Of a DNA stretch of 64,000 nt, positions 7,402 to 27,021 are shown in pieces. The number at the start of each line of letters is the position of its first letter. Positions within the stretch are counted from its first letter, which is position 1. The stretch covers positions 4,622 to 68,621 of the forward strand of contig CAJUGF010000001.1 of NCBI GenBank assembly GCA_910585915.1, given 5' to 3'. Below the pieces are notes generated by a model. It made no database searches. It saw only the letters and a program-made list of their open reading frames with translations, and was not told the DNA's origin. The translations under genes and the position numbers were made by a program. The DNA comes from an uncultured Bacilli bacterium. Its GTDB lineage: Bacteria > Bacillota_I > Bacilli_A > RF39 > UBA660.

Positions 7402-7408
7402 CAAAGAA

Positions 7409-8784: not shown

Positions 8785-9061
8785 TACAGTAAAAATTTTA
8801 AGAGGAGAAAAAATTATTTATGGAATGATTTTTTTATTAATTATTTCTATGCCTATTTGTACAGTACTTACAAAAGCCTTTTTGTCTGAAAGTAATATTC
8901 AAGTAGAACAAATGAAGTCCAAAATTGAAACCCAGACAGATAAAAATGAATCTCTAAGTATGCAGATTGATGAGTTAGCAAGTCTTGATAAAGTACAAGA
9001 AGTTGCAAGTGAAAAAGGATTGAGTTATAATAATGATAATGTTAAAGTAATTACAGAATAG
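8768..9061 (+). CDS. ftsL: Cell division protein FtsL
   Basis: 97 aa, single TM (IIYGMIFLLIISMPICTVL) followed by a coiled-coil; located between rsmH and a PBP. Confidence 0.75.
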   Translation: MKKRNNTVKILRGEKIIYGMIFLLIISMPICTVLTKAFLSESNIQVEQMKSKIETQTDKNESLSMQIDELASLDKVQEVASEKGLSYNNDNVKVITE

Positions 9062-11259: not shown

Positions 11260-12009
11260 ATGGTAAAACATTTTATTATTATGGGAAGTTCTTATGAAAC
11301 AAAACGAAAAATTGCATTAGATGTAGTTGGAGAAGAACGAGTTTGTGAAAAGGAAGTTCGTTCTATTATGGATTATTTGAAAGAAAATTGTCTTTTAAGT
11401 TCTATTTCTACACATATGATTATTACCGATTCTCCAACTTTTCAATCTGTACAAAATCATGATCATTTTTTTTCTAATGTTAGTCTAATTTCAACAAAAG
11501 AAGAATTTGTTAATCTAATTAATAAAGATCGATATTTAAAAGGAATTGATGTAGCTAATTATATAAAAACACGTATTTCTTGTACTCATTTAAAAATTGA
11601 AAAATTAACTTATCTTTGTTATGCTGATTATCTTTGTGCTTATCATAAGCCTTTATTTCAAGATAAAATATTCGCTTATGCTAAGGGACCAGTGGTACAA
11701 TCCGTTTATCGAAAGTTTAAAGGCATAAAATCTTTATTAAATGTGAGTGAGGATGATAAGAAGGAATATTCTAATAAAAGTGCTTATATGTCTGTACGTA
11801 GTAGAATTATGGTTTCAGAAGATGGATTATATAAATTGGATAGTATTAATAAAACTTTAGAGAAGTATGGCCATTTGAAAGGTCAAGAATTAGTAGAATT
11901 GACACATAGAGTGGATAGTCCATGGGTTTATTCGGGAAGTGGAAAGAAAAAATATCAAAAAATTACAGATGATATTATTTTGAAATATCATTGTAATGAG
12001 ATTCTTTGA
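11260..12009 (+). CDS. Panacea/GepA-like (DUF4065) domain protein, solo; ORF track starts at 11236 (TTG)
   Basis: Core LKIEKLTYLCYADYLCAYHKPLFQDKIFAYAKGPVVQSVYRKFKG closely matches the Panacea/SocA-GepA domain consensus (KLQKLLYyaq ... PLF.d.i.AW.yGPVvpsvY). Flanked by novel N- and C-terminal extensions. RBS GGAAGGAG. Confidence 0.75.
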   Translation: MVKHFIIMGSSYETKRKIALDVVGEERVCEKEVRSIMDYLKENCLLSSISTHMIITDSPTFQSVQNHDHFFSNVSLISTKEEFVNLINKDRYLKGIDVANYIKTRISCTHLKIEKLTYLCYADYLCAYHKPLFQDKIFAYAKGPVVQSVYRKFKGIKSLLNVSEDDKKEYSNKSAYMSVRSRIMVSEDGLYKLDSINKTLEKYGHLKGQELVELTHRVDSPWVYSGSGKKKYQKITDDIILKYHCNEIL

Positions 12010-12104
12010 TATTGTGATGTTGTGTATTTTGAAACTGGAAAAATTATCGCTTAAAGATAATTTTTTTTCTTTTAGTAATAAAAATGTTATAAATTCCATA
12101 ATTT

Positions 12105-12215
12105 GGGCTCGACAAATTTAAAAAATGTGATAAAATAACAACTTAATTAATCATTTTATGGGGGTTGTGATGTATTTTCGACAAATTGCGACAAATGTGG
12201 TGACAAATGTGTGTT
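12105..12215 (+). promoter_or_regulatory. Array of four GACAAAT direct repeats upstream of the polysaccharide locus (candidate transcription-factor binding sites)
   Basis: (C/T)GACAAAT at 12111, 12180, 12190 and 12202; the last three are on a 10-12 bp (helical) period and followed by GTG. They sit in the 290-bp intergenic region before the initiating sugar transferase gene. Confidence 0.5.
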
Positions 12216-12301
12216 AAGTTAATGTTATGATCTGTGAAGTAAAGTAGATTAATGTTATACTTTTATTAAGTTAAAGGGGATTTAAAAGGAGAGGTTGGTT
12301 T

Positions 12302-12979
12302 ATGAATCAAGAAAAGGTTTTAATTGAAAGTACGCATAGTGGAATTGCTACTTTTAAGAAGATTTGTTATGTTTGTAGTAAAAGAACATTTGATGTTTTA
12401 GTGAGTCTGATTGGAATGTTATGGTTACTTCCACTTGCTATTATTATTAAAGTAATTTATGTGTGTACAGGGGATTTTCATAGTATTTTTTATAAGCAAG
12501 AGAGAATTGGCCTTCATGGAAAAACTTTTATGCTTTATAAGTTTCGTACAATGAAACCACATGCAGATGAGTTACTTAAAATTATTCTTGCAAATAATGA
12601 AGATTTGCGTAATGAATATGAAGAAAATAAAAAAATGAAAAATGATCCTCGTATTACGAAAGCTGGTAAAATAATTCGTAAACTTTCTTTGGATGAATTT
12701 CCTCAATTTATTAATATTTTTAAGGGAGATATGAGTTTGGTTGGAAATCGTCCTTATTTACCACGTGAGAAAGAAGATATGGGAAGTTATTATAAATATA
12801 TTATTAAAACAAAACCCGGTCTTACTGGATATTGGCAAGTGAATGGTAGAAGTAATACAACGTTTATTGATCGACTTAGAATGGAGAAAAAGTATAGTAA
12901 TATTCAAAGTTTTGGTTTAGATGTCAAGATCATTTTTAAAACAATGGAACAATTTATTAAACATAATGGAGCTATGTAA
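12302..12979 (+). CDS. Polyprenyl-phosphate sugar phosphotransferase (bacterial sugar transferase, WbaP/CpsE C-terminal domain type)
   Basis: Single N-terminal TM then the Bac_transf domain motifs (KFRTM, DELPQ-like DEFPQFINIFKGDMSLVGNRP, YWQV). RBS AAAGGAGAGG. Confidence 0.88.
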   Translation: MNQEKVLIESTHSGIATFKKICYVCSKRTFDVLVSLIGMLWLLPLAIIIKVIYVCTGDFHSIFYKQERIGLHGKTFMLYKFRTMKPHADELLKIILANNEDLRNEYEENKKMKNDPRITKAGKIIRKLSLDEFPQFINIFKGDMSLVGNRPYLPREKEDMGSYYKYIIKTKPGLTGYWQVNGRSNTTFIDRLRMEKKYSNIQSFGLDVKIIFKTMEQFIKHNGAM

Positions 12980-13054
12980 TTTTATAGCTTTTTTTATTGA
13001 AAAGTTTTGAAAATTTTGGATAGTATGTTAAAATTATATTGGAAGGTAAGTTTT

Positions 13055-14233
13055 ATGAAACACGTTTTTATTATTGGATCTAAAGGTATTCCAGCTAATT
13101 ATGGAGGATATGAAACTTTTGTACATAAATTAACTGAATACCAAAAGAATAAACATCTTAAATTTCATGTAGCATGTGCAGTGGATGATTTGTCTAAACA
13201 TTCAATTGAGTTTGAATTTAATGGAGCGCATTGTTTTAATATTGAATGGCGCAGGCTTGGATCTGCACGAGCTATTTTTTATGATGTGGATGCATTAAAA
13301 TGGGCTATTCAATATGTTAAAGCCAATAAAATAGAAAAACCAATTTTTTATATTTTGGCATGTCGAATGGGGCCATTTATTCATAAATATAAGAAAATTA
13401 TTTCTAGTTTAGGTGGAAAACTTTATGTTAATCCAGATGGTCATGAATGGTTACGAAGTAAATGGAGTTTGCCAGTTAGAAAATATTGGAAGATTTCAGA
13501 AAGTTTAATGATAAAACATGCTGATTTAGTAATATGTGATAGTAAAAATATTGAAGAATATATTCATAAAGAATATAAAAAATATCATCCTAATACAACT
13601 TATATTGCTTATGGTGCAGAAACTTCTCCATCTACTTTATCTGATGATGATAATAAATGGAAGGAATGGCTTAGTAAAAATCAAGTAAAATCTAATCAAT
13701 ATTATTTGATTGTGGGAAGATTTGTACCAGAGAATAATTATGAAACTATGATTAGAGAATTTTGTAATTCAAATATTTCAAAGGATTTGGTTATTATAAC
13801 TGGGGTAAAATCTAATGATAAATTTTTTGATTATTTGAGTCAAACTACAAATTTTCAAAAGGATAAGCGTGTAAAGTTTGTTGGAACAGTTTATGATCAA
13901 GATCTTTTAAAAAAAATTCGTGAAGAAGCTTATGGATATTTGCATGGACATGAGGTTGGAGGTACCAATCCAAGTTTATTAGAAGCTTTAGGTTTAACAA
14001 AGCTAAATCTTTTATTCGATGTCGGTTTTAATCGAGAAGTGGCACTTGATACTGCTTATTATTGGACCAAAGAAAAAAATAATTTATCTAAACTTTTAGA
14101 AAAGTGCGAAAATTTGAGTGCAGCAGAGATCAATGATATTTCTAAATCTGCGAAAAAGATTATTCGGGAAAAATATAGTTGTGAGTACATTAACGAACGA
14201 TATGAAAGGTTGTTTTATGATGGAGAAAAATGA
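13055..14233 (+). CDS. Glycosyltransferase family 4 with DUF1972-type N-terminus (WchF/Cps2T-like rhamnosyl/glycosyl transferase)
   Basis: N-terminus MKHVFIIGSKGIPANYGGYETFV is typical of DUF1972-GT4 enzymes. C-terminal GT4 E..GG..P..LEA-type region (HGHEVGGTNPSLLEA). Confidence 0.75.
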   Translation: MKHVFIIGSKGIPANYGGYETFVHKLTEYQKNKHLKFHVACAVDDLSKHSIEFEFNGAHCFNIEWRRLGSARAIFYDVDALKWAIQYVKANKIEKPIFYILACRMGPFIHKYKKIISSLGGKLYVNPDGHEWLRSKWSLPVRKYWKISESLMIKHADLVICDSKNIEEYIHKEYKKYHPNTTYIAYGAETSPSTLSDDDNKWKEWLSKNQVKSNQYYLIVGRFVPENNYETMIREFCNSNISKDLVIITGVKSNDKFFDYLSQTTNFQKDKRVKFVGTVYDQDLLKKIREEAYGYLHGHEVGGTNPSLLEALGLTKLNLLFDVGFNREVALDTAYYWTKEKNNLSKLLEKCENLSAAEINDISKSAKKIIREKYSCEYINERYERLFYDGEK

Positions 14234-15047
14234 TTTTTTGTTGCAGATTCAGTCTTTAGAACTGGAAGCTTTAAAAGAATTAAAATCGTTTTGTGATAAG
14301 CATCAAATAAAGTTCTTTTTACGTGGTGGTAGTGTTATGGGAGCAATTAAGTATTCAGGATTTGTTCCTTGGGATGATGATGCAGATATTGCTATTCCTA
14401 GAGATCAGTATGATAAGTTAATAAGTCTTTGTCAGACAGAAGAATGGTCCGAAAAATTCTATATTGCCAGTTATCATTATAATTCAGAAATACATTGTTA
14501 TTTCCCAAGAGTTTTAGTTAAAAATGAGGTTTTAGAACAATTGCAATTACCAAAGAATAATCATTTAGGTTTAACCATTATTGATATTTTGCCATTAGAT
14601 GGTGCTCCAAAAAGTCGCTTTGCTCGGGAATTATATTTTTTCAAAGTTTATGTTTTAAGAGCGTTAGCAGGGGTTCATACTCTTAGTATTAAAGAAACTG
14701 TTGATATGCATGATAGCAAAAAAAGACTTGTTTTAAAATTATTAAAATTTTTTCATGTTGATTCTTTGTATTCTCAAGATCAAATATATCATGCTCTTGA
14801 TCGCTTATATAAAAGATATGACTATAAAACTTGCAAACATATAGGTACTCTTACTGGATCTTTGTATAAGAAAGAAATTTTTCCAAGAGATTATTGGGGG
14901 GAAGGCGTTTATCATAAATTTTGTGATACTGAATTTTTAGTTCCAGATGAATATGATAAATATTTGCAACAATTATATGGAAAGGATTATATGACTACTA
15001 TACCAACAGAAGAGAAGATTGCAGCAAAAAAACATATAAAAGAGTAG
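14217..15047 (+). CDS. LicD-family phosphotransferase (phosphocholine/polyol-phosphate transfer to glycopolymers)
   Basis: LRGGSVMGAIKYSGFVPWDDDADIAIPR matches the LicD nucleotidyltransferase-fold DxD motif; overlaps the upstream gene by 17 nt. Confidence 0.8.
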   Translation: MMEKNDFLLQIQSLELEALKELKSFCDKHQIKFFLRGGSVMGAIKYSGFVPWDDDADIAIPRDQYDKLISLCQTEEWSEKFYIASYHYNSEIHCYFPRVLVKNEVLEQLQLPKNNHLGLTIIDILPLDGAPKSRFARELYFFKVYVLRALAGVHTLSIKETVDMHDSKKRLVLKLLKFFHVDSLYSQDQIYHALDRLYKRYDYKTCKHIGTLTGSLYKKEIFPRDYWGEGVYHKFCDTEFLVPDEYDKYLQQLYGKDYMTTIPTEEKIAAKKHIKE

Positions 15048-15059
15048 TATGAGAAATTT

Positions 15060-15935
15060 ATGATAGGGTTTGTTATTTTACATTATATGGCTTATGATGA
15101 AACCATAAAATGTACAGAGAAAATTTTAGAAAATGTGAGAGAAGAAAAAAAAATTGTAATTGTTGATAATGCGTCTAGTAATGGTTCAGGGCAAAAGTTA
15201 AAAGAATATTTTGCTAATAATGATGATGTTATTGTAATTTTACAATCATCTAATTTAGGATTTGCTAAAGGAAATAATATTGGATTTCAATATATAAAGA
15301 GTAATTTTAATTGTGATTATTTAGTGATACTTAATAACGATGTAGAGATATCTGATCAATGTTTTAAAGAAAAATTGGATGATGCTTATCAAAAATATGA
15401 TTTTGATGTTTTGGGACCTGATATTTATTGTACCACTTTAGATGTTCATCAAAGTCCTAAAAGGTTATCTTCTTATACTTACAATGAAGTTGTAAGTGAA
15501 TTAGATAAATATAGAAAAAAATCTCAAAGCAAGTATGTTACTGCATTTAAATGTTATTTGAAGAAAATTCCTTTTTTAAAGAAAATGGTACATGGGAAAA
15601 GACGTGGAAGACAGCAGATTGATTATAATAAAACTTATTTTAATGTTCCATTACATGGCTCTTGTGTTGTTTATTCAAAAAAATTTATAGAAAAAAGATC
15701 CTATGCTTTTTTTGATCAAACTTTTATGTATTTTGAGTTAGAAATATTGGATTATGAATGTCATAGAGATTCTATGAAAACGGTGTATTATCCAGCTATT
15801 AAAGTTTTACATCATCATAATGTTTCAACTAATCTGGCATATAAATCTGAACTTCAAAAAGTTCATTTTATGAATCAATGTATATGTGAATCATTAGAAA
15901 AATTTGTAGAACTAATGGAAAAGGATAGAAATTAA
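15060..15935 (+). CDS. Glycosyltransferase family 2
   Basis: VIVDNASSNGS, LNNDVE (DxD-like) and the GT-A architecture. Confidence 0.8.
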   Translation: MIGFVILHYMAYDETIKCTEKILENVREEKKIVIVDNASSNGSGQKLKEYFANNDDVIVILQSSNLGFAKGNNIGFQYIKSNFNCDYLVILNNDVEISDQCFKEKLDDAYQKYDFDVLGPDIYCTTLDVHQSPKRLSSYTYNEVVSELDKYRKKSQSKYVTAFKCYLKKIPFLKKMVHGKRRGRQQIDYNKTYFNVPLHGSCVVYSKKFIEKRSYAFFDQTFMYFELEILDYECHRDSMKTVYYPAIKVLHHHNVSTNLAYKSELQKVHFMNQCICESLEKFVELMEKDRN

Positions 15936-15949
15936 AAGAGGGTGAATTA

Positions 15950-17293
15950 ATGGAATACTTAGTATTACTGTTTATTACAGAAATTTTCTTTTTAATGATT
16001 TCTTATTTTTCGACTGGGAGAGATATTTTAAGACCTATAAATGTTATGCTTGGAATGTTTTGTTTAAGTACTTTCATTGCGCTTTTGAATGTATTTAATT
16101 GGAATATTGTTTATTCATGGCGCTCTTATTTTATTCTTTCCACAGGGTTATTAGTAGCTTTAATGGCAGATGTTTTTGCTTATAAAAAAAATGATAAGAA
16201 GGCTATTGTTTCAAAAAGAGAGTTAAAAAAAATTGACATTTCTACTTATAAAATTTATTTTATTATTTTGGTTGAATTGGTGATTCTTTTCTTGTATTAT
16301 CGAGAAATAAGACGGCTTGCTATTTTAGATGGTTATGTGGATGGTGCAAACTTATTATGGCATTTTCGAAATATTACTTCTTATACAAGTGAGGAGAGCT
16401 TACGAGGAATTATTAGTTTATTAATTAAATTCATTGATGCTGTTGCTTATGTTTTATCATTTGTTTTGATTAATAATTTATTTTCTAAAAAAATTAAAAA
16501 AAGTGAAGTAGTGCTTTTCTCAATTCCTATTTTATTGTTTGCAGGTAAGGTGTTAATGAGTTCTGCTAGAATGGAATTATTACGTTGGGGAGCTTATTCT
16601 TTTGTTGTAAGTTATATATTGTATAAATATAAAGTTGGATGGGATAAAAATACTACTAAGAGATATGTTACTAAAGGTCTAATTTTAATTCCTGTTGTTT
16701 TATTATTATTTTATTATGCTTCTAGTATTATTGGACGTTCAACAACACGTTCTATGTTTGATTATATATCTACTTATGCAGGTGGTTCTATTCAACATTT
16801 TAATCAATATATTGATTCACCTACCACGACTGAACATTTTGGAGAGGAGACTTTCCCTGCCGTTTATACTATGTTTAAAAGAATCGGATTAACTGATTAT
16901 AGTCGTCCTGTGCATTTGGAAATGCGTCAATTGGGAGTAACTCAGGGCAATGTTTATACTTTTTTTCGCAGACCTTATAATGATTTTGGATATTTTGGAA
17001 TGTTGATTTTTACTTTTATTTTGATTTTTTTCTTTTCTAATGTGTATTCAAAATTTAAGTATAAACACAATAGTTATAGAAATGATTGCGTAATAATTTT
17101 TTACAGTTATTTATTTTATTGGATTGTTCTTTCTTCAGTAGAGCAATATTCAATTGGTTTTGTATCAATGGGTACTGTTTTAACTCTTATTTATTTTCGA
17201 TTATTATATTTCTTTTTTATTCAACTAAAAATACAAAAGTCGAAAATTATTATATATAAAAGCAAAGAGGGGATTTTGAATGAAGGAGAGTAA
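15950..17293 (+). CDS. Polytopic membrane protein, probable Wzy-type polysaccharide polymerase
   Basis: About 10-12 predicted TM helices with one larger loop; its position between the glycosyltransferases and the flippase suggests Wzy. Functional call by context only. Confidence 0.5.
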   Translation: MEYLVLLFITEIFFLMISYFSTGRDILRPINVMLGMFCLSTFIALLNVFNWNIVYSWRSYFILSTGLLVALMADVFAYKKNDKKAIVSKRELKKIDISTYKIYFIILVELVILFLYYREIRRLAILDGYVDGANLLWHFRNITSYTSEESLRGIISLLIKFIDAVAYVLSFVLINNLFSKKIKKSEVVLFSIPILLFAGKVLMSSARMELLRWGAYSFVVSYILYKYKVGWDKNTTKRYVTKGLILIPVVLLLFYYASSIIGRSTTRSMFDYISTYAGGSIQHFNQYIDSPTTTEHFGEETFPAVYTMFKRIGLTDYSRPVHLEMRQLGVTQGNVYTFFRRPYNDFGYFGMLIFTFILIFFFSNVYSKFKYKHNSYRNDCVIIFYSYLFYWIVLSSVEQYSIGFVSMGTVLTLIYFRLLYFFFIQLKIQKSKIIIYKSKEGILNEGE

Positions 17294-18671
17294 ATTAACT
17301 AAAGGTATGCTATATGTTTTAATGGCAAATATTGTGAATTTAATTTTTACATTGGCTACTAATTTTTTACTTCCGAAATATTTGTCTGTTGATACTTATG
17401 CTGCTATTAAAACTTTTCAATTATATGTTACTTATATTGGCTTTTTTCATTTTGGTTTTGTAGATGGAGTTTATTTGAAATTTGGTGGAAAGAATTTAGG
17501 AGCTTTGGATAAAAAAGAAACTATGCGTTCTTTGGCTACTTTGCGTATTTTCCAATTTTTACTTTCATTGTTTTTCATTCTTTTTGCTTTGGTTATTGAT
17601 GATATGATTTTGTTAATGTTTTCATTAGCCATTCTTCCTTTAAATGTAACTTCTTATTTTAAAATGCTTTATCAGTCAGTGGGGGAATTCCAAAAATATA
17701 GTAAGATTACTAATTATGTTGCAGTTTTAACTTTTGTAGTAAATATGATTTTATTATTCTTTTTCCGTAGTGCATCGTTTATGGCTTATTTATTTTGGTA
17801 TGTTTTAATAGATTTGTTTGTTTGGTTTCTTTTAGAATTTAGTTTTTGTAAAGTTTTAAATGAAAAAATTCGTCTATTTTATTTTTCTTTTCAAGAATTC
17901 TTTTCTAATATAAAATCTGGTTTTTCTTTGATGCTTGGAAATTTTGCTTCATTTATTTTAACAGGGCTTGACCGTTGGTTTGTAAAAATATTGATGTCTA
18001 CTATATCATTTGCTCAATATTCGTTTGCTGTGAGTGTCGAAAATATGCTTAACGTGGCTTTGACACCTATCTCTATACCTTTATATAATTATTTTTGTAA
18101 TGAAGATTCCTCTAAAAAAATAAATTTTGTATATCAAGGTATGGTTTTATTTGGGGTAGTTATTGTTTCATCAGCTTTTGTTGTTAAATTTATTCTGGAA
18201 GTATTTTTGACTAATTATTTAGATTCATCTGTCATTATATTTTATTTATTTGCTGCTCAAATATTTCAAATTTTAATTAAGTCTGTGTATGTCAATTTAT
18301 ATAAGGCTAGGAAGCAACAAAAGAAGTATTTTCATCGTTTGTTGTTCGTTGTTTTTTCAGGAATTGTTTTTAATATTGTTTTTTATCTTTTATTAAAAAA
18401 TATTTCAGCTTTTGCCATTGGAACTTTATTTTCTTCTATTTTGTGGTTTCTTTTTTCAAGATGGGATTTTAAAGATATTGGAAATCAATTTCAACTTTTT
18501 CTATTTTTAATTTTAGAAACATTGTTATTTTTATCTTGTGGAATTTTGTTAAATTCTATATGGGGATTTTTATGTTATGTGATAGGTTCTCTTTTCTTTA
18601 GTTTTATTTTTATGGGGGATTATATTATTAACTTATTTAAAATGCTTAAAAGTAAAATTTTGTCAAAATGA
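17280..18671 (+). CDS. Polysaccharide flippase (Wzx / MOP superfamily)
   Basis: 463 aa with about 12-14 TM helices and the Lys-rich N-terminus typical of Wzx; locus context. Confidence 0.6.
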   Translation: MKESKLTKGMLYVLMANIVNLIFTLATNFLLPKYLSVDTYAAIKTFQLYVTYIGFFHFGFVDGVYLKFGGKNLGALDKKETMRSLATLRIFQFLLSLFFILFALVIDDMILLMFSLAILPLNVTSYFKMLYQSVGEFQKYSKITNYVAVLTFVVNMILLFFFRSASFMAYLFWYVLIDLFVWFLLEFSFCKVLNEKIRLFYFSFQEFFSNIKSGFSLMLGNFASFILTGLDRWFVKILMSTISFAQYSFAVSVENMLNVALTPISIPLYNYFCNEDSSKKINFVYQGMVLFGVVIVSSAFVVKFILEVFLTNYLDSSVIIFYLFAAQIFQILIKSVYVNLYKARKQQKKYFHRLLFVVFSGIVFNIVFYLLLKNISAFAIGTLFSSILWFLFSRWDFKDIGNQFQLFLFLILETLLFLSCGILLNSIWGFLCYVIGSLFFSFIFMGDYIINLFKMLKSKILSK

Positions 18672-18758
18672 TTTACATAAAATGTTAATTTTTTATGTAA
18701 TTTTATTTGAAATAGATTATAATCATGATATATTCAATATAGTGTGGAGGGATTTTTA

Positions 18759-19460
18759 ATGGAAGAAATTAATATTGGAGAATTTTTCTCATTTGTTAAG
18801 AAACATTTAATCTTTTTTGTTTCTATGATTTTAATGATTTTAGTTATTTGTATTTTGTATTTTATAGTAATTAAAAAGCCAATATATTCATCTGATGTAT
18901 CTTTAACTTTAACTGGAGTTAATGATTCTCAAGGTAGAGTTACAACCAATGATATTACTTTAAATACAAAAATGTTACCTACCTATCAAGAGGTAATTAC
19001 AAGTCGTAAGGTACTTGATCAAGTAATTAATAATTTAAAGCTTAATAAAACCGTTTCCGAGCTTGTTGGACATATTAAAATTCAAGCTAATACGGATTCG
19101 ATGGTTTTAAATATTACGGTTACGGATGAGAATCGAGTGATTGCTAAAGATATTGCTAATGAAGTGGCTAGTATTTTTGGGGAAGAAATTAAAATTTATG
19201 GTATTACGAGTGTTACTATTTTAGATAAGGCTATTGTAAATGATACACCTATAAATATTAATTATACTAAATCAATTTTGATTAGTTTGTTGGCTGGAAT
19301 ATTTATTTCTTTGGTTTGTTTGTTTATTGTCTTTTATTTAGATACTACGGTAAAAGGTATGGAACAAGTTAATACAAAGTTAGGTCTTGTTGTCTTGGGT
19401 GGAGTTCCACTTCATACAGAAAATACCAAGGGAGTTAGAAAGGGGTTAAAACGTAAATGA
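18759..19460 (+). CDS. Chain-length determinant / BY-kinase modulator (CpsC/YwqC-like Wzz domain)
   Basis: N-terminal TM, periplasmic Wzz-like region, second TM near the C-terminus, basic tail (KGVRKGLKRK); the stop overlaps the start of the kinase gene. Confidence 0.75.
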   Translation: MEEINIGEFFSFVKKHLIFFVSMILMILVICILYFIVIKKPIYSSDVSLTLTGVNDSQGRVTTNDITLNTKMLPTYQEVITSRKVLDQVINNLKLNKTVSELVGHIKIQANTDSMVLNITVTDENRVIAKDIANEVASIFGEEIKIYGITSVTILDKAIVNDTPININYTKSILISLLAGIFISLVCLFIVFYLDTTVKGMEQVNTKLGLVVLGGVPLHTENTKGVRKGLKRK

Positions 19461-20131
19461 AAAATGAATTAATTGTTGATCAAAATCCTAAATCTTCAGT
19501 AGCAGAAGCAATTCGTATTGTTCGTACTAATCTTCAATTTTCTTCAGCAGATAAAGAAGTTAAAACAATTTTAGTAACTTCGTCGATCGCAGGAGAAGGA
19601 AAAAGTTTTATTAGTTCTAATTTGGCTATTGCTTTTGCTCAAAATGGAAAAAAAGTATTATTAATTGATTGTGATTTACGAAGAGGCCGTTTACATCGAA
19701 TTTTTAATCTTGAAAATGATAAAGGGCTTTCTAATCTTTTGATTTCTGATATTCAAGCAAATTTTTCAGGATATTTACAGAAGACTAGAATTAAAAATTT
19801 ATTTTTATTGTCTAGTGGTAGTGTTCCTCCAAATCCTAGTGAACTTTTGGATTCTAAGAAAAATGAAACTCTTATTGAACTTTTAAGTAAAAAGTTTGAT
19901 TATATTATTTTTGATGGAACTCCAGTTGGAGGATTAACTGATTCGGTTATTATGGCTAAATATGTAGATAAGGTAGCTATTGTATGTGCTGTTAATTATA
20001 CAAAGGTTGATCAACTTGTTAATACACAAAAGACTTTAGAGAATATTGAAGCAGATATTGCAGGTGTTATTGTTAATAAGATTCCTGATATGCATAGTAG
20101 TTATTATGGCAATTATTATGTAGAAGATTAA
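19457..20131 (+). CDS. Tyrosine-protein kinase (CpsD/YwqD BY-kinase, P-loop ATPase)
   Basis: Walker A SSIAGEGKSF, Walker A' LLIDCDLRR, and a C-terminal Tyr cluster YYGNYYVED. Confidence 0.88.
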   Translation: MKNELIVDQNPKSSVAEAIRIVRTNLQFSSADKEVKTILVTSSIAGEGKSFISSNLAIAFAQNGKKVLLIDCDLRRGRLHRIFNLENDKGLSNLLISDIQANFSGYLQKTRIKNLFLLSSGSVPPNPSELLDSKKNETLIELLSKKFDYIIFDGTPVGGLTDSVIMAKYVDKVAIVCAVNYTKVDQLVNTQKTLENIEADIAGVIVNKIPDMHSSYYGNYYVED

Positions 20132-20176
20132 TTGAAACTGGATTATAATTTTCAGTTTTTTCTTTTGGAGGATTGT

Positions 20177-20611
20177 ATGAAATATAAACGTGTATTAAAA
20201 TGGATATTTTTATTATTTTGGATGATTCTTATTTTTTCTTTTTCTTCTCAAAATGGTAGTACAAGTTCTTCTGTTTCTAATTTTTTTGTTTCTTTTTTTG
20301 AAAATCATTGTTTTTTGGCAGTTGATTTAGTATTTTTAATACGAAAGGGTGCTCATTTTTTTGAATATTTTATTTTAGGTGTTTTAGTTCTTTTTTTAAT
20401 TCGAGAATATGTTCTACAGGAATGGAGAGCATTATTGTATTCTTTTTGTTGTTGTCTTTTTTATGCTATTAGTGATGAGATTCATCAGCTTTTTGTTGTT
20501 GGAAGAAGTGGAAGAGTTATGGATGTTATTATTGATGGTTGTGGAGCACTTTTAGGAATTTTAATTTTTAGTTTTCTTCTGCTATTGAAAAAAAAGTCAA
20601 GAAAAAATTGA
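20177..20611 (+). CDS. VanZ-family membrane protein
   Basis: 4 TM; GAHFFEY ... DEIHQLFVVGRSGRVMDVIIDGCGALLG matches the VanZ-like signature. Confidence 0.7.
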   Translation: MKYKRVLKWIFLLFWMILIFSFSSQNGSTSSSVSNFFVSFFENHCFLAVDLVFLIRKGAHFFEYFILGVLVLFLIREYVLQEWRALLYSFCCCLFYAISDEIHQLFVVGRSGRVMDVIIDGCGALLGILIFSFLLLLKKKSRKN

Positions 20612-20875
20612 TATTTTGTCATTTTTGGTGTAAACTATGTAGTATAGTAGAGGGATTTGTCGAATGCCTTTTGTTGCATTGTCCTCTTTGCTTTTTATAA
20701 TAGTTTTTTTGAGGTGACTGGTATGATTTTTTTTCTTATAGGTAGTTTCTTTTTTTGTTATTCTTTTTGCGTTTCAGCATCTAAAGAAACTGTTGAGTTG
20801 GAGGAATGTTAATCTAAAGTTTGCATTCTGAGTGCTTTTTTGATATAGTTGTTCAGAAAGATAGTAGGGATGTTT

Positions 20876-22330
20876 ATGGCAAAAAGTAAGGGAAACAATA
20901 GATTAAGTACTAATACTTTTCGTATTTTTCGTATTGGTGGTTATGTAAGTTTTTTGCTCCTTATGATTTTTGATTATTTTTTATATCAGTTGGATGTATT
21001 GCCAAGCAAATATTTATTTTTGCTTTTGATTGTGACTTTATTAGTGGAGTTATTTGCTATTGGAGCAATTTTATTTTTTAAGAAGCCTCTTAAGATTGCA
21101 GGATTTGTTGTTGTTATAATTTTTGGCCTATTTAGTGGAATCGGTATTTATTATGGATATCATGCAAATTCTTTTTTAAATGATTCTTTTCGAAATAGTA
21201 AGCTTAATTCTTCTGCTACTTATTATATAATTGTTCCAAATGATAGTAATATCTCTTCAATAAACGATATTGATTCAACCTTTTCTTATTTGTCTGGAAC
21301 TTATTTAATTGATCAAGCTCTTATTAGTTTTCAGGAGAAAAAAAATATTCAAATGACTTCTTATGATGATGCACTTACTATGTTTCAGGATTTAAAAAGT
21401 CATTTGATTTTAGGTGCTTTAGTAGATCAGACTTCTTATCAATTGATTTTAGAAATGAAAAATGAATTTGTAGAAAGTGATTTTAAAGTAATTGATTCTT
21501 TTGAGGTTCAAATGGAAGTAGAAAATGATACGATTAGTAATAGTTCTGATAAGTTTCAAGTTTATATTGGGGGAAATGATTTTACGAATAGTTTAATGGA
21601 CTTTAATATGATTGTGACTATTAATACGAAGAGTCATCGAATTTTATTTACGAGTATTCCTCGTGATTATTATATTCCAGTTTTTGGATATGATGGAAGA
21701 CGTGATACATTAAGTTTTATGGGTGCCCGAGGTATTGAAGTTAATCGTAGGTCTTTGGCTGATTTTTTAGGAATGGATTTAAATTATTTTATGAAGCTTG
21801 AAACGAAGAGTTTGGTAGGTATTGTAGATCAAGTGGGGGGAATTACTTATTGTTCTGATCGAAGTTTTACTACTACGCATGCAACAATATTGGATACTTA
21901 TGATGATTCTAAGGGGAATAAGTTAGATGTTAAAAAAGGATGCCAGAAATTAAATGGGATTGAAGCTTTGACTGTTGCTCGTGAACGCCTTGCATTTCCA
22001 GGTGGAGATCGTCAACGTCAAAAGAATTGTCAACAAATTATTATGGCAATTTTCAAACAACTGATTAGCACTAATACTATTACTAATTATAATAATATTT
22101 TAAGTTCTTTAAGTGATTTATATCAAACTAATATTCCAAGAGAGATCATTACTGATTTAATTAAAGAAACCATTGCTGGAGCAGAGTGGGATATAGAGAA
22201 TCAATCTATGGATGGAAGTGATTCTAATAATTTTGTTCATTTGTCTAATTTAAGAAGCTATGTTATGATTCCTAACCCTGATTCTGTGGAAGAAGCAAAA
22301 ATAAAAATGAAGGATATTTTAGATTCTTAG
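20876..22330 (+). CDS. LytR-CpsA-Psr (LCP) family glycopolymer-peptidoglycan ligase
   Basis: N-terminal TM segments then the LCP core (ILFTSIPRDYYIPVFGYDGRRDTLSF ... LVGIVDQVGGI). Confidence 0.85.
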   Translation: MAKSKGNNRLSTNTFRIFRIGGYVSFLLLMIFDYFLYQLDVLPSKYLFLLLIVTLLVELFAIGAILFFKKPLKIAGFVVVIIFGLFSGIGIYYGYHANSFLNDSFRNSKLNSSATYYIIVPNDSNISSINDIDSTFSYLSGTYLIDQALISFQEKKNIQMTSYDDALTMFQDLKSHLILGALVDQTSYQLILEMKNEFVESDFKVIDSFEVQMEVENDTISNSSDKFQVYIGGNDFTNSLMDFNMIVTINTKSHRILFTSIPRDYYIPVFGYDGRRDTLSFMGARGIEVNRRSLADFLGMDLNYFMKLETKSLVGIVDQVGGITYCSDRSFTTTHATILDTYDDSKGNKLDVKKGCQKLNGIEALTVARERLAFPGGDRQRQKNCQQIIMAIFKQLISTNTITNYNNILSSLSDLYQTNIPREIITDLIKETIAGAEWDIENQSMDGSDSNNFVHLSNLRSYVMIPNPDSVEEAKIKMKDILDS

Positions 22331-22404
22331 GAATTTATATATCTTTTTTTCTTGGTAATTGGAAGCATACGTGTTATAATATTTCCACTTTTGGTGGGGT
22401 GCAT

Positions 22405-22950
22405 ATGAATATTTTAAACGATAAACATATTTCAAAAATGGATGCGATTACTTTGGATTATACTTATAAGTATCCTAGAGAGTATCCAGGGAAAACTATG
22501 TGTGGGGTTTCTTCTGATAGTCTTCAATATCATTATGAAATTTTACTTCAAATGATGTTAAAAGAGCAAATTCCAGATATTTTTTCTATTTTTAAATTAC
22601 TTCAAGGGTACGAAGTATTTAAGGCACAAGAAGAACTTGCTAGTCTTGGAGATATGTCATTGCATAGAGTTATAGGTGATGAAAATTTTAGTGGTTTCTT
22701 TTGCTTTTTTTGCCCATTAAAATTATCAGATAGTCAATTATTAAGATTACGAATGTGGTATGAATATACTAAAATTAGATCGTGTTGTTTGAATTTTCAT
22801 GTCTTATCTTATCAAGGATTTGTTGATTATGAAGCTACTTCTGATGTTCAATCTTATTTTCAACAACAACAAATTATGGATGATGAATTTGTGTTATCTC
22901 TTGTTAAAAAATATCCTAATTATTGTGATTTTTATGATATAGCATCTTAA
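22405..22950 (+). CDS. Hypothetical protein
   Basis: ORF with RBS GGTGGGGTG; Cys-rich; no recognisable domain. Confidence 0.4.
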   Translation: MNILNDKHISKMDAITLDYTYKYPREYPGKTMCGVSSDSLQYHYEILLQMMLKEQIPDIFSIFKLLQGYEVFKAQEELASLGDMSLHRVIGDENFSGFFCFFCPLKLSDSQLLRLRMWYEYTKIRSCCLNFHVLSYQGFVDYEATSDVQSYFQQQQIMDDEFVLSLVKKYPNYCDFYDIAS

Positions 22951-23014: not shown

Positions 23015-24922
23015 ATGTTTTTTAATGATGTTCATACTAGAATTCGTTTTGTTTTTTTAGTGGTTTTATGTATTTTACTTGCGATTGTGATTCGGGTATT
23101 TTATATTCAAGTATTTCAATATGAAAAACTTCATGATTTAGCATCTTCATTATGGAGTAGGGAACTTCCTATTACAGCCGATCGAGGAGAAATTGTGGAT
23201 CGTAATGGAAAAGTCTTAGCAACTAATATTACGACGACTTCTTTGGTTATTATTCCTAATCAGGTTGTTAATCCAGAAGAGGTCTCCAAAAAGCTTTCTG
23301 ATATTTTAAAGTGTGATTATGAAGCAATGCTTCGTCATGTTACAAAGAAGACAAGTATTGAACGAGTTCATCCAGAGGGACGTCAGCTTTCTTATGATAT
23401 TGCTTCACAAATTGATGATTTGAATTTGGATGGGGTTTATTTGGTTAAGGAAAGTAAACGATATTATCCTTATGGAAATGTTCTTTCACATGTTTTAGGT
23501 TATGTAGGAATTGATAATCAAGGTTTATCAGGTCTTGAAATGACTTATGATCAATATTTAACAGGAGAAAATGGAGCAATTAAGTATTTTTCAGATGGTA
23601 AGGGAAATCGTTTGGAAATGACAGAGGTATATGAGGAGCCTCAAAATGGAATTAATTTGCAATTAACAATTGATTTAGATATTCAGCTTGCGGTTGAACG
23701 TGAACTTGATAATATTATGACTAAGTATACACCAGAACATGCTCTTATTATGGCAATGAATCCAAAAACTGGTGAAATTTTAGCAATGGGTAGTCGTCCT
23801 AGTTTTGATTCAAATGATTATCAATCTTATTCTACTGAGGTTATTAATCGAAATTTACCTATTTGGATGACTTATGAACCAGGATCAACTTTTAAAATCA
23901 TGACGCTTGCTGCTTCGATGGAAGAAAAAACGATTAATTTGTTTGAGGATCAATATTTTGATGGAGGAGCAATTACAGTTGAAGGTGCCACCATTCATTG
24001 TTGGAAACATGGTGGACATGGAGCACAAACATTTTTAAATGTAGTTGAAAATTCTTGCAACCCTGGGTTCGTTGTAATGGGACAGAAACTAGGGACAGAA
24101 ACACTTATGAAGTATATTCGAAATTTTGGTTTTGGGTCTAAAACTGGTATTGATTTAAATGGAGAAAGTAATGGTATTTTATTTAAAAATGAAAATATGG
24201 GGCCCGTAGAGCTTGCAACAACTAGTTTTGGGCAAGGTATTTCGGTTACTCCGATTCAACAAGTTACAGCAGTATCTGCAGTAGTAAATGGTGGAACTCT
24301 TTATCAGCCTTATATTGTTGGAAGTATGTTAGAGCCAGAAACTAATTCCATAATCCAAAAAAATGAACCAAAGGTAGTTCGTCAGGTGATTAGCGAAGAA
24401 TCTAGTAAGATGGTGCGTTATGCTCTTGAAAGTGTTGTGGCTCATGGAAGTGGAAGAAATGCTTATATTGAAAATTATCGTGTTGGGGGAAAAACGGGAA
24501 CGGCGCAAAAGGTTTTAAATGGAGCATATCAAGCGGGAAATTATATTTTATCTTTTATTGGATTTATGCCAGCAGATGATCCTGAAATTGTGGTTTATGT
24601 AGCTGTAGATCATCCTGTTGGAGTTGTGCAATATGGAGGAACTGTATCTGCACCTATTGCTAAAAGTGTCTTACAAACGGCCATTGAAGTACTCGATATT
24701 GATCCAAGTAGTGAAGGTATGGAAAAAGAGTATAATTGGATGGACACAAAATATGTGACTTTACCTGATGTTACAGGGATGACTTTGGATGAAGCTAAGA
24801 AAGTTTTAAAAGGATTTAATTTGGAATATTCTGGAGATGGAGAAACTGTTTTGTATCAAAGTCCAAGTGCAGGGTATTATGTTCGAGAGGGAGGAACAGT
24901 TAAATTAATGCTTCAATCATAA
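23015..24922 (+). CDS. Class B penicillin-binding protein (second FtsI/PBP2x/SpoVD-like transpeptidase) with C-terminal PASTA domain
   Basis: TM anchor, STFK (SxxK), SCN, KTGTA, and a C-terminal PASTA-like segment (VTLPDVTGMTLDEAKKVLKG). Confidence 0.88.
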   Translation: MFFNDVHTRIRFVFLVVLCILLAIVIRVFYIQVFQYEKLHDLASSLWSRELPITADRGEIVDRNGKVLATNITTTSLVIIPNQVVNPEEVSKKLSDILKCDYEAMLRHVTKKTSIERVHPEGRQLSYDIASQIDDLNLDGVYLVKESKRYYPYGNVLSHVLGYVGIDNQGLSGLEMTYDQYLTGENGAIKYFSDGKGNRLEMTEVYEEPQNGINLQLTIDLDIQLAVERELDNIMTKYTPEHALIMAMNPKTGEILAMGSRPSFDSNDYQSYSTEVINRNLPIWMTYEPGSTFKIMTLAASMEEKTINLFEDQYFDGGAITVEGATIHCWKHGGHGAQTFLNVVENSCNPGFVVMGQKLGTETLMKYIRNFGFGSKTGIDLNGESNGILFKNENMGPVELATTSFGQGISVTPIQQVTAVSAVVNGGTLYQPYIVGSMLEPETNSIIQKNEPKVVRQVISEESSKMVRYALESVVAHGSGRNAYIENYRVGGKTGTAQKVLNGAYQAGNYILSFIGFMPADDPEIVVYVAVDHPVGVVQYGGTVSAPIAKSVLQTAIEVLDIDPSSEGMEKEYNWMDTKYVTLPDVTGMTLDEAKKVLKGFNLEYSGDGETVLYQSPSAGYYVREGGTVKLMLQS

Positions 24923-25031
24923 TTTAGTGATTTTTCTATATAATAAAATAGGTGTAAAATTGTGTCAAAAAGTAAAGCAGATCAAAGGTTTGTCACAAGA
25001 GCATGTTATAATAAGATATGAGGTGAGCGTT

Positions 25032-26024
25032 ATGCTAATTCTTGCCAAAGCAGCCATGGCGATGATGCTTGGATTTATTTTTTCAATTTTGTGTGCATTA
25101 ATTTTAATTCCACTTCTTCGGAAATTGCATGTTGGACAAAGTGTTAGTAAAACGCTTGGTGAGCGTCATTTGAAAAAAGATGGTGTCCCTACAATGGGAG
25201 GGCTCATTTTTATTATTCCAGTGATCGTTTCGTTAGTTTTTTTATATTTTAATAAAAGCATTCAAATAAATCATAATTTGATTATTTTGGTTTTGGTCTT
25301 TTTAGCATATGCTGGACTGGGATTTATTGATGATTTTTTAAAAATTCATTTTCGAAATAATACTGGACTTAAAATAACTAGTAAGTTATTAATTCAAATG
25401 GTGATTGCTCTTGTATTTTTTTATATTTTTATGAAAAATGGTGGAGAACCTATTCTTCGAATTACATCACTCCGTTTGGTTATTCCAATGGGGTGGATGT
25501 TTGGTTTATTTATTTTATTCTTGTTAGTTGGTACTAGTAATGCTGTTAATATTACTGATGGATTGGATGGATTAGCTGGGGGACTTTGTGTTATTGCTTT
25601 CTTTGCATTTGGAGTCATTTCTTGGAATACTGGATGGATGGAAGGATACCAAGAGATTGCCATTTTCTGCTTTATTTTAGTAGGAAGTTTGCTTGGATTT
25701 TTACTTTTTAATACACATCCTGCAAAAATTTTTATGGGTGATTTAGGGAGCCTTGCGTTAGGAGGAGCTCTTGCTACTATTGCTATTTTAACACGACATG
25801 AATTGTCTTTGGGCCTTGTTGGAGGGGTATTTGTAGTGGAGACGATTTCTTCATTTATTCAAATTGTTTCCATTCGCAAATTTCATAAAAAAATATTTAA
25901 AATGGCACCTTTGCATCATCATTTTGAACAACTTGGATGGGCAGAAACAGATATTGTTAAATTGTTTTGGGTTATTGGTCTTATTTTGGCAATGGCAGCG
26001 ATTACGTATGGAGTGTGGATTTAA
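25032..26024 (+). CDS. mraY: Phospho-N-acetylmuramoyl-pentapeptide-transferase
   Basis: RBS GAGGTGA; 10-TM MraY fold, with DD motif region (NAVNITDGLDGLA) and HHHFE. Confidence 0.92.
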   Translation: MLILAKAAMAMMLGFIFSILCALILIPLLRKLHVGQSVSKTLGERHLKKDGVPTMGGLIFIIPVIVSLVFLYFNKSIQINHNLIILVLVFLAYAGLGFIDDFLKIHFRNNTGLKITSKLLIQMVIALVFFYIFMKNGGEPILRITSLRLVIPMGWMFGLFILFLLVGTSNAVNITDGLDGLAGGLCVIAFFAFGVISWNTGWMEGYQEIAIFCFILVGSLLGFLLFNTHPAKIFMGDLGSLALGGALATIAILTRHELSLGLVGGVFVVETISSFIQIVSIRKFHKKIFKMAPLHHHFEQLGWAETDIVKLFWVIGLILAMAAITYGVWI

Positions 26025-27004: not shown

Positions 27005-27021
27005 AAAGGGGAGGATTTTCT

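What the first reader, a model, noticed from the sequence alone, without database searches (positions are those of the whole stretch)
12302..22330. Complete Wzy-dependent glycopolymer (capsule / wall polysaccharide) locus inserted inside the dcw cluster between two class-B PBP paralogs
Ten genes split the canonical mraZ-rsmH-ftsL-PBP | mraY-ftsW-murG-murB-divIB order. They are the initiating sugar-P transferase, DUF1972-GT4, LicD, GT2, Wzy, Wzx, CpsC, CpsD BY-kinase, VanZ and an LCP ligase. Two full-length PASTA-bearing PBPs (9072..11192 and 23015..24922) flank the locus. The LCP ligase and LicD suggest the product is covalently attached to peptidoglycan and decorated with phosphocholine or polyol-phosphate. 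In well-studied Bacillota such loci lie elsewhere (cps or tag regions). Co-localisation with division genes implies transcriptional coupling of envelope glycopolymer synthesis to septal PG synthesis. No CpsB-type phosphatase for the BY-kinase is present in the locus.
Basis: partly seen in the sequence, partly recalled or inferred. Interest (0 to 1): 0.7.

Follow-up and report, generated by a model that had tools for sequence, protein, structure and literature searches.

The report
Surface-polysaccharide locus inside division gene cluster
An uncultured spore-forming gut bacterium keeps an ordinary capsule-type polysaccharide gene set between the two penicillin-binding-protein genes of its cell-division cluster; related species have it at the same site, so it is an inherited, species-variable hot spot rather than a one-off insertion.

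Summary
Window 12302-22330 encodes, on one strand, a small initiating sugar-phosphate transferase, a Cps2T/WchF-type DUF1972 glycosyltransferase, LicD, a GT2, Wzy, a divergent Wzx, CpsC, the tyrosine kinase CpsD, VanZ and a Cps2A-like LCP ligase. It lies between mraZ-rsmH-ftsL-PBP and PBP-mraY. No CpsB gene exists anywhere in the window.

The interpretation needs correcting.
- The two PBPs are only 31% identical. They are the old division-PBP/SpoVD pair, not a duplication around an insert.
- Three sister species were traced on single contigs. All have a polysaccharide locus in the same interval (13-38 kb). The ends are conserved (transferase at 5'; CpsC-CpsD-VanZ-LCP at 3') and the central genes are unrelated, as in serotype cassettes.
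- More distant relatives carry unrelated cargo at this junction, or have a split cluster.
- There are no mobility genes or flanking repeats, and the GC dip is only about 2 points below the window mean.
- The locus has its own promoter-like region, conserved across four species, preceded by a terminator-like hairpin. Coupling to the mra promoter is therefore unsupported.

The closest analogue is the pneumococcal cps locus, flanked by pbp2x and pbp1a. This is a new member of a known kind, of modest interest.

The parts
7376..9061 (+). mraZ, rsmH and ftsL: the 5' part of the dcw cluster
   Evidence: PF02381, PF01795 and a weak DivIC hit
9072..11192 (+). Division-type class-B PBP (PBP2B/PBP2X-like) with two PASTA stretches
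   Evidence: Pfam. Best NCBIfam match is strep_PBP2X at 388 bits, below its cutoff. 31% identical to the second PBP.
11260..12009 (+). SocA/Panacea-domain antitoxin gene, orphan in this genome; not part of the polysaccharide pathway
   Evidence: PF13274, 7.6e-14. Strain L103 has a 197-aa ORF with a weak RelA_SpoT hit just upstream of its copy.
12025..12080 (+). AT-rich hairpin followed by a U-run; candidate terminator ending the mraZ-PBP-SocA unit
   Evidence: RNA fold -11.7 kcal/mol, z = -2.8. The scan requires at least 3 G-C pairs and so cannot detect it.
12100..12265 (+). cps 5' control region: TCGACA-16-TGTGATAAAAT (12109-12136), four GACAAAT repeats (12111-12208), and two extended -10 boxes, TGTTATGAT (12223-12231) and TGTTATACT (12253-12261)
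   Evidence: Both TGTTATA boxes are conserved in four species whose upstream gene differs (SocA, PBP or NrdD).
12302..12979 (+). Small polyprenyl-phosphate sugar-1-phosphate transferase with one hydrophobic segment; the initiating enzyme
   Evidence: PF02397, 5.8e-60. 65-75% identical in three sister species.
13055..14233 (+). DUF1972/GT4 glycosyltransferase, Cps2T/WchF-type (beta-1,4-rhamnosyltransferase family)
   Evidence: NF046071 at 617 bits, cutoff 500
14220..15047 (+). LicD-family phosphotransferase; adds a phospho-substituent of unknown identity
   Evidence: PF04991, 3.1e-34
15060..15935 (+). GT2 glycosyltransferase
   Evidence: PF00535, 3.2e-16
15950..17293 (+). Wzy repeat-unit polymerase
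   Evidence: TIGR04370 at 162.7 bits, cutoff 40; about 11 hydrophobic segments
17280..18671 (+). Divergent Wzx (MOP-family) flippase
   Evidence: No direct family hit. About 12 hydrophobic segments. 28 of 58 homologues hit PF01943.
18759..19460 (+). CpsC/Wzd chain-length co-polymerase with two hydrophobic segments
   Evidence: PF02706; TIGR01006 at 1.6e-37
19457..20131 (+). CpsD/Wze bacterial tyrosine autokinase
   Evidence: TIGR01007 at 198.5 bits, cutoff 108. Walker A and C-terminal Tyr cluster visible in the sequence. 98% aa identical to the sister species.
20177..20611 (+). VanZ-family membrane protein, a constant partner of the LCP gene across the clade; function unknown
   Evidence: PF04892. 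LCP and VanZ are adjacent, or separated by one gene, in many relatives.
20876..22330 (+). LCP (LytR-CpsA-Psr) ligase with Cps2A-like architecture (N-terminal membrane segments, accessory domain, LCP domain)
   Evidence: PF03816. NF051849 aligned over residues 33-492 at 204.6 bits, below its cutoff of 650.
22352..22380 (+). Promoter-like site TTGGTA-17-TGnTATAAT ahead of the 181-aa gene and spoVD
   Evidence: TGTTATAATAT is identical in the sister species.
22405..22950 (+). Orphan 181-aa cytoplasmic protein at the 3' edge of the locus
   Evidence: No family hit. Only 3 homologue clusters found. It lies between VanZ and LCP in L001. The structure model was unusable.
23015..24922 (+). SpoVD-type class-B PBP with one PASTA domain
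   Evidence: TIGR02214 at 749 bits, cutoff 688
24927..26024 (+). mraY; the dcw cluster resumes here
   Evidence: TIGR00445 at 315 bits

Best explanation
This is a standard Wzy-dependent locus for a peptidoglycan-anchored surface heteropolysaccharide (a capsule or wall polysaccharide). It occupies an evolutionarily conserved hot spot between the division PBP gene (pbpB/pbp2x type) and spoVD in an uncultured, spore-forming gut Bacilli lineage related to Candidatus Ventrenecus.

Inferred pathway, from family assignments. The small transferase puts a hexose-1-phosphate on undecaprenyl phosphate. The Cps2T-type enzyme adds what is probably rhamnose. The GT2 adds a further sugar and LicD adds a phosphodiester-linked substituent. 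Wzx flips the unit and Wzy polymerises it. CpsC/CpsD tyrosine autophosphorylation tunes polymerisation. The Cps2A-like LCP enzyme transfers the polymer to peptidoglycan.

Shown here: the gene identities, the position, and the comparative pattern. The locus was inherited at this site within the genus-level clade. Its central genes have been exchanged between species while the ends stay conserved, as in serotype cassettes.

Inferred from conserved sequence motifs: the locus is most likely transcribed from its own promoter region rather than from the mra promoter.
For: Gene identities. The same arrangement appears in independent assemblies of the species. Three sister species were traced on single contigs. 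Ga0080692_1000082: PBP, then Bac_transf, DUF1972, GT2, Stealth, GT4, a 375-aa protein, Polysacc_synt, UDP-glucose dehydrogenase, CpsC, CpsD, VanZ, LCP, a 174-aa protein, then SpoVD; 13.1 kb. BATT21-1 scaffold_51: 25.9 kb. Ga0136175_10000794: 38.1 kb. Mosaic conservation against the first of these: transferase 72%, Cps2T 55%, CpsC 76%, CpsD 98%, LCP 58%; LicD, GT2, Wzy and Wzx have no detectable counterpart. The species representatives L001 and L004 (SpoVD 83-85% identical) also carry CpsC-CpsD-VanZ-LCP upstream of SpoVD. The PBPs are ancient paralogues. There are no flanking repeats and no mobility genes. The composition shift is weak. A conserved promoter-like region and an upstream hairpin are present.
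Against: No product chemistry or expression data exist, and the organism is uncultured. The Wzx assignment is by transitive homology only. Sugar-nucleotide genes (rml), donor genes for the LicD substrate, and any phosphatase for CpsD are absent from the window, and the rest of the genome could not be examined. The promoter and terminator are sequence motifs, not mapped transcript ends. All genes from mraZ to queH share one strand, so read-through cannot be excluded. Only four species were traced across the full PBP-to-SpoVD interval.
Confidence: 0.8

Rival explanations
1. The locus is a recent horizontally acquired island that split a previously contiguous pbpB-spoVD pair in this genome only.
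For: GC is 27.4% in the locus against 31.9% and 33.9% in the flanking dcw genes. A toxin-antitoxin remnant (SocA) lies at the 5' junction. More distant relatives have only 2.6-3.6 kb between the two PBP genes, filled with unrelated genes (L029, L043, L074).
Against: Three sister species have a cps-type locus in the same interval with homologous end genes. No integrase or transposase is present and there are no direct repeats. GC3 and codon usage are within the range of neighbouring genes. Gene content is identical in every sampled strain of the species.
Confidence: 0.05
2. One reading: polysaccharide synthesis is transcriptionally coupled to septal peptidoglycan synthesis because the mra promoter reads through the locus.
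For: About 27 genes from mraZ to queH are co-oriented with short gaps. No G+C-rich intrinsic terminator was found in intergenic DNA between 7 and 26.5 kb. In pneumococci, capsule synthesis is organised by the divisome and by CpsD at the septum (PMC10233549, PMC4574921), so coupling would make biological sense.
Against: A hairpin with a U-run follows the SocA gene, and a similar one follows the PBP gene in L096 (seen by eye in the alignment). A 292-nt gap carries promoter-like boxes that are conserved in four species even where the upstream gene is nrdD rather than a dcw gene. A second conserved TGnTATAAT box precedes the 181-aa gene and spoVD. In two sister species, five unrelated genes, three on the opposite strand, separate the PBP gene from the locus.
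Confidence: 0.15
3. The product is the cell's main, possibly essential, wall-anchored secondary polymer (a functional stand-in for teichoic acid) rather than a dispensable capsule.
For: LCP and VanZ stay linked upstream of spoVD even in relatives that lack nearby CpsC/CpsD. A sister species has LicD plus a TagF-like Glyphos_transf gene in the equivalent locus. LicD points to a phosphodiester-containing polymer. No other glycopolymer locus is present in the 74-kb contig.
Against: The Wzy/Wzx/CpsC/CpsD machinery and between-species cassette replacement are typical of capsules and exopolysaccharides. Only one contig of the genome was examined, so other polymer loci may exist.
Confidence: 0.3
4. 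The polysaccharide is sporulation-related (a spore-surface glycan) and is co-regulated with spoVD.
For: It is adjacent to spoVD and near spoVE-like ftsW. The organism carries yabP and yqfD.
Against: The promoter-like boxes are of the housekeeping extended -10 type. The enzymes are those of vegetative capsule loci. In the Ventrenecus clade the junction is broken without loss of spoVD-mraY linkage.
Confidence: 0.05

Closest known systems
Streptococcus pneumoniae cps locus (dexB-cps-aliA), flanked by pbp2x and pbp1a
   Same: Both are Wzy-dependent loci with an LCP ligase (CpsA), CpsC, CpsD, a WchF/Cps2T-type rhamnosyltransferase, Wzx and Wzy. Both have conserved end genes and a type-variable centre. 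Both lie close to PBP genes: pneumococcal pbp2x is about 8 kb upstream and pbp1a about 7 kb downstream (PMC3537446), and pbp2x sits in the mraW-ftsL-pbp2x-mraY dcw fragment (PMC8136486).
   Different: Here the locus lies directly between the division PBP gene and spoVD-mraY, inside a still co-linear dcw cluster. The regulatory genes are at the 3' end, in the order transferase...CpsC-CpsD-VanZ-LCP, rather than cpsA-B-C-D at the 5' end. CpsB is absent. The initiating transferase is the short form with one hydrophobic segment. VanZ and an orphan 181-aa gene are constant extras. Variation was seen between species, not yet within a species.
Bacillus subtilis-type dcw cluster (mraZ-mraW-ftsL-pbpB-spoVD-murE-mraY-murD-spoVE-murG-murB-divIB)
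   Same: The anchor genes come in the same order. The two class-B PBPs match the two-PASTA division PBP plus one-PASTA SpoVD pair (the B. subtilis order is from general knowledge).
   Different: murE and murD are missing from the cluster. Three junctions (pbpB|spoVD, mraY|ftsW, ftsW|murG) carry 1.8-11.8 kb of cargo that differs between related species.
Clostridioides difficile cell-wall glycopolymer (PSII/anionic polymer) locus with LCP ligases
   Same: Both belong to low-GC spore-formers and encode an LCP-dependent, wall-anchored polysaccharide locus that influences the envelope (PMC5065235, PMC10100865; titles and abstracts only).
   Different: The C. difficile locus is not in the dcw cluster. 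Its gene content was not compared here.

Membership tests
Wzy-dependent polysaccharide assembly locus | Initiating polyprenyl-phosphate sugar-phosphate transferase | tested here: met
   PF02397 at 202 bits
Wzy-dependent polysaccharide assembly locus | Wzy repeat-unit polymerase | tested here: met
   TIGR04370 at 162.7 bits, cutoff 40
Wzy-dependent polysaccharide assembly locus | Wzx (MOP superfamily) flippase | tested here: inconclusive
   The protein itself hits no Pfam, NCBIfam or PDB profile. 28 of 58 full-length homologues hit PF01943, and the protein has about 12 hydrophobic segments.
Gram-positive CpsABCD-type capsule regulation module | CpsC co-polymerase plus CpsD BY-kinase with Walker motifs and a C-terminal tyrosine cluster | tested here: met
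   PF02706; TIGR01007 at 198.5 bits, above its cutoff; GEGKS and YYGNYY visible in the sequence
Gram-positive CpsABCD-type capsule regulation module | CpsB PHP-type phosphotyrosine phosphatase encoded in the locus | tested here: not met
   No PF19567 protein in the locus, and no tblastn match in the window. Relatives L024, L025, L028, L031 and L032 do encode CpsB next to CpsCD.
Gram-positive CpsABCD-type capsule regulation module | cpsA(LCP)-B-C-D block at the 5' end of the locus | tested here: not met
   The order here is transferase first, with CpsC-CpsD-VanZ-LCP last.
LCP (LytR-CpsA-Psr) glycopolymer-peptidoglycan ligases | LCP catalytic domain on an N-terminally membrane-anchored protein | tested here: met
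   PF03816 at 91 bits; TIGR00350 at 71.3 bits, cutoff 62.3; N-terminal hydrophobic segments. Ligase activity itself is not testable here.
dcw (division and cell wall) cluster | Co-linear mraZ-rsmH-ftsL-class B PBP ... mraY-ftsW-murG-murB-divIB | tested here: met
   The cluster is interrupted at three junctions and lacks murE, murD and murF.
SpoVD (sporulation-specific class-B PBP) | Passes the equivalog model and has a single C-terminal PASTA domain | tested here: met
   TIGR02214 at 749.1 bits, cutoff 688; one PASTA domain. A role in sporulation was not tested.
Mobile genomic island | Integrase or transposase, flanking direct repeats, or a tRNA target | tested here: not met
   No tRNA genes, no convincing flanking repeats, and no recombinase among the annotated genes.

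The most novel reading that the evidence does not exclude
In this lineage the pbpB|spoVD junction is the fixed home of the cell's only surface glycopolymer locus. Transcription leaving the locus feeds into the 181-aa gene, spoVD and mraY. Synthesis of the wall polymer and of lipid I, which compete for undecaprenyl phosphate, would then be hard-wired together. Linkage would also make PBP alleles and polysaccharide type travel together during recombination, as in pneumococci. The CpsB-less kinase module with its constant VanZ and orphan partners would be a distinct regulatory variant.
Probability: 0.12. Interest if true: 0.55.

Novelty: new member of a known kind. Interest (0 to 1): 0.3.

Why it matters
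Capsule-type polysaccharides shape how gut bacteria interact with phages and the host immune system. This uncultured Bacilli lineage has no described surface structures. The results show that its polysaccharide locus sits at a conserved site in the division cluster and changes content between species. That gives a ready marker for serotype-like typing of these organisms in metagenomes. It also provides a second, independent case, after the pneumococcus, of capsule genes linked to PBP genes. It does not reveal new biochemistry.

Tried and rejected
- A metagenome scan with CpsD as a mid-locus anchor returned only 7 distant, short loci and gave no synteny information.
- The structure prediction of the orphan 181-aa protein, made to test whether it could replace CpsB, gave pLDDT 49.9. 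It was not taken to a fold search.
- A profile of the Wzx-like family found nothing among solved structures.
- Rfam and tRNA scans of the window found nothing.
- The repeat search for island boundaries gave only AT-rich chance matches.
- CpsD is 98% identical in protein to the sister species, which at first suggested recent inter-species transfer. I rejected this because nucleotide identity is only 84-88%, slightly above the 73-83% of spoVD, which points to purifying selection.
- The consensus terminator scan is uninformative in this 29% GC genome, because it demands at least 3 G-C pairs.
- PADLOC gave no hits for the SocA gene, the orphan 181-aa protein, or the two unknown genes between mraY and ftsW.

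Full report
**Source and setting.** The window is part of contig CATDNY010000001.1 of MAG GCA_949518705.1. It has 29.5% G+C. The closest named relatives are uncultured 'Bacilli bacterium' MAGs and Candidatus Ventrenecus. The contig carries sporulation genes: a SpoVD equivalog, a SpoVE/FtsW-type gene, yabP and yqfD.

**The observation.** Pfam and NCBIfam confirm the ten gene calls.
- 12302-12979: a 225-aa Bac_transf initiating transferase with one hydrophobic segment.
- 13055-14233: a DUF1972/GT4 enzyme that passes the Cps2T beta-1,4-rhamnosyltransferase equivalog model (617 bits, cutoff 500).
- 14220-15047: LicD.
- 15060-15935: a GT2 glycosyltransferase.
- 15950-17293: a repeat-unit polymerase (TIGR04370).
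- 18759-19460: CpsC.
- 19457-20131: CpsD, which passes TIGR01007 and shows Walker A GEGKS and a C-terminal YYGNYY cluster.
- 20177-20611: VanZ.
- 20876-22330: an LCP protein that aligns end to end with the Cps2A model.

The presumed Wzx (17280-18671) matches no curated family directly, even at E = 1. It does have about 12 hydrophobic segments. It also belongs to a family of 1885 representative sequences, and 28 of 58 aligned members hit PF01943 Polysacc_synt. I accept it as a divergent Wzx, on transitive evidence only.

One is a SocA/Panacea antitoxin gene (11260-12009). The other is an orphan 181-aa gene (22405-22950) with only three homologue clusters among 5.8 billion proteins.

There is no CpsB in the window. 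A CpsB from a relative (PF19567, 3e-51) finds nothing by tblastn. The same gene order is seen in independent assemblies from about ten sequencing runs or samples, so the arrangement is real.

**The two PBPs.** They share 31% identity. The downstream one passes the SpoVD equivalog model (749 bits, cutoff 688) and has one PASTA domain. The upstream one has two PASTA stretches and is closest to PBP2X-type division enzymes. This is the pbpB-spoVD pair that sits side by side in the Bacillus-type dcw cluster (general knowledge). It is not a duplication created by, or flanking, an insertion.

**Comparative synteny.** I used SpoVD as an anchor across GTDB species representatives (80 loci). I also looked up contigs from both the PBP side and the SpoVD side.

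Three sister species could be followed across the whole interval on single contigs:
- PBP 82% and SpoVD 88% identical: 13.1 kb with Bac_transf, DUF1972, GT2, Stealth, GT4, a 375-aa membrane protein, Polysacc_synt, UDP-glucose dehydrogenase, CpsC, CpsD, VanZ, LCP and a 174-aa protein.
- PBP 75% and SpoVD 85% identical: 25.9 kb.
- PBP 77% and SpoVD 87% identical: 38.1 kb.

In the last two, a metallophosphatase, thymidine kinase and nrdG/nrdD genes lie between the PBP gene and the polysaccharide locus. In all three, the locus starts with a homologous transferase (65-75% identity) and ends with CpsC-CpsD-VanZ-(x)-LCP-(x). Against the closest species, the end genes are conserved: transferase 72%, Cps2T 55%, CpsC 76%, CpsD 98%, VanZ 47%, LCP 58% and the orphan 45%. 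LicD, GT2, Wzy and Wzx have no counterpart. That is the architecture of a type-variable capsule locus.

Within the species, every sampled contig has the same content.

Farther out, the junction holds other things:
- a 751-775-aa protein plus DUF1292 (L029, L043);
- a 741-aa and a 238-aa gene that look, by eye, like a pyruvate formate-lyase and its activase; the second also gave a blastp hit to the NrdG activase reference (L074);
- hybrid histidine kinases and response regulators (L027).

In the Ventrenecus clade the cluster is broken at this point. mraZ...PBP is followed by glf and unrelated genes, while LCP-VanZ stays upstream of spoVD-mraY. Another group has two CpsC-CpsD-CpsB triplets upstream of spoVD.

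The pbpB|spoVD junction is therefore a long-standing breakpoint and cargo site. The polysaccharide locus is its inherited occupant in the window's genus-level clade.

**Signs of recent insertion.** They are weak. G+C is 27.4% in the locus against 31.9% and 33.9% in the flanking dcw genes, but GC3 and codon usage overlap those of the neighbours. There are no tRNA genes, no recombinase genes and no credible flanking repeats.

**Transcription.** All genes from mraZ to queH share one strand. The consensus scan found no intergenic G+C-rich terminator, but that scan cannot see AT-only stems. Directly after the SocA gene is a hairpin with a U-run (-11.7 kcal/mol, z = -2.8). The 292-nt gap before the transferase gene contains:
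- TCGACA-16-TGTGATAAAAT;
- four GACAAAT repeats;
- two extended -10 boxes, TGTTATGAT and TGTTATACT.

Both TGTTATA boxes are conserved in all four species, even where the upstream gene is nrdD. A further TGnTATAAT box before the orphan gene and spoVD is identical in the sister species. These are motifs, not mapped transcript ends. They do favour an autonomous cps operon and a separate start for spoVD-mraY over read-through from the mra promoter.

**Mechanism.** The pathway is inferred from family membership. Undecaprenyl-phosphate is primed by the transferase. The unit is extended by the Cps2T-type enzyme (probably with rhamnose) and by the GT2. LicD adds a phospho-substituent whose identity cannot be read from the sequence. 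Wzx then flips the unit, Wzy polymerises it, CpsC/CpsD control the process, and the LCP enzyme transfers the polymer to peptidoglycan.

Nucleotide-sugar genes, LicD donor genes and a CpsD phosphatase must be encoded elsewhere, if at all. Only this one contig could be inspected. Whether the polymer is a dispensable capsule or the main wall polymer cannot be decided. TagF-like and LicD genes in a sister locus, and the constant LCP-VanZ pair, keep the second reading alive.

**Comparison with known systems.** The nearest analogue is the pneumococcal cps locus. It lies about 8 kb downstream of pbp2x and about 7 kb upstream of pbp1a (PMC3537446), and pbp2x sits in the mraW-ftsL-pbp2x-mraY fragment of the split streptococcal dcw cluster (PMC8136486). 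In that organism the divisome and CpsD organise capsule synthesis at the septum (PMC10233549, PMC4574921). A functional link between division and capsule is therefore established biology, but nothing here tests it.

The present locus differs in five ways:
- it is embedded inside a still co-linear dcw cluster;
- it carries the regulatory genes at the 3' end;
- it lacks CpsB;
- it uses a short transferase;
- it has VanZ and an orphan gene as fixed companions.

A full-text search found no paper combining 'dcw cluster' with capsule, polysaccharide and LCP. The placement therefore seems undescribed, but it is a matter of gene neighbourhood, not a new kind of system.

**Verdict.** This is a new member of a known kind, with interest about 0.3.

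Noticed in passing
window 29073-33080 (+), between ftsW/spoVE and the zf_Tbcl gene before murG: A 1335-aa sigma-factor-like giant. It has an unknown N-terminal domain, then an RpoD-like core covering regions 1.2-4 (residues about 170-425; 293 bits, below the RpoD cutoff; partial MzaA hits). Next come five tandem copies of the region-4.2 helix-turn-helix fragment (NEPxLEExGKKxNVTRERTxQIEN). The last roughly 800 aa hold at least six repeats of a region-4.1-like module (LPxKQREIxYxxHGExL). Length varies within the species (1225 against 1335 aa). The sister species has a 1130-aa version, and other relatives have unrelated cargo at this site.
   Followed up: partly
window 11260-12009; locus L103 12183-13531: The SocA/Panacea antitoxin gene at the PBP|cps junction has no toxin partner in the window. 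Another strain of the same species has a 197-aa ORF with a weak RelA_SpoT hit (23.6 bits, below the cutoff) directly upstream. This suggests a small-alarmone-synthetase toxin plus Panacea antitoxin pair that has decayed here.
   Followed up: partly
window 26099-27837 and 29061-33390; loci L107, L110, L111: Besides pbpB|spoVD, the mraY|ftsW and ftsW|murG junctions also carry species-variable cargo. In the window these are two unknown proteins (301 and 271 aa) and the giant sigma-like protein. One relative has a RelB toxin-antitoxin gene instead. Another has thyA, a dCMP-deaminase fusion and DHFR. A 62-aa treble-clef zinc-finger gene (zf_Tbcl) before murG is conserved. murE, murD and murF are absent from the cluster, and murC lies divergently upstream of mraZ.
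   Followed up: partly
window 19457-20131 compared with L108 6523-7194: CpsD is 98% identical in protein to the sister species. That is more than MraY (90%), FtsW (91%), SpoVD (88%) or the division PBP (82%). Nucleotide identity is only 84-88%, so the cause is very strong purifying selection on the kinase rather than recent transfer.
   Followed up: yes
window 22405-22950: An orphan 181-aa cytoplasmic protein sits at the 3' edge of the locus. Only three homologue clusters exist in 5.8 billion proteins. It contains an invariant LRLRMWYEY motif. In L001 it lies between VanZ and LCP, so it belongs to the polysaccharide locus. The AlphaFold model was unusable at pLDDT 49.9.
   Followed up: partly
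window 12111-12208: Four direct GACAAAT repeats, three of them spaced 10-12 nt apart, lie just upstream of the conserved extended -10 boxes of the cps control region. They are shared with the closest sister species and could be an operator for an unidentified regulator.
   Followed up: no
window 52853-53470: A second VanZ-family gene lies next to yqfD-ybeY-era. The same neighbourhood is found in the Ventrenecus-clade contig L100.
   Followed up: no
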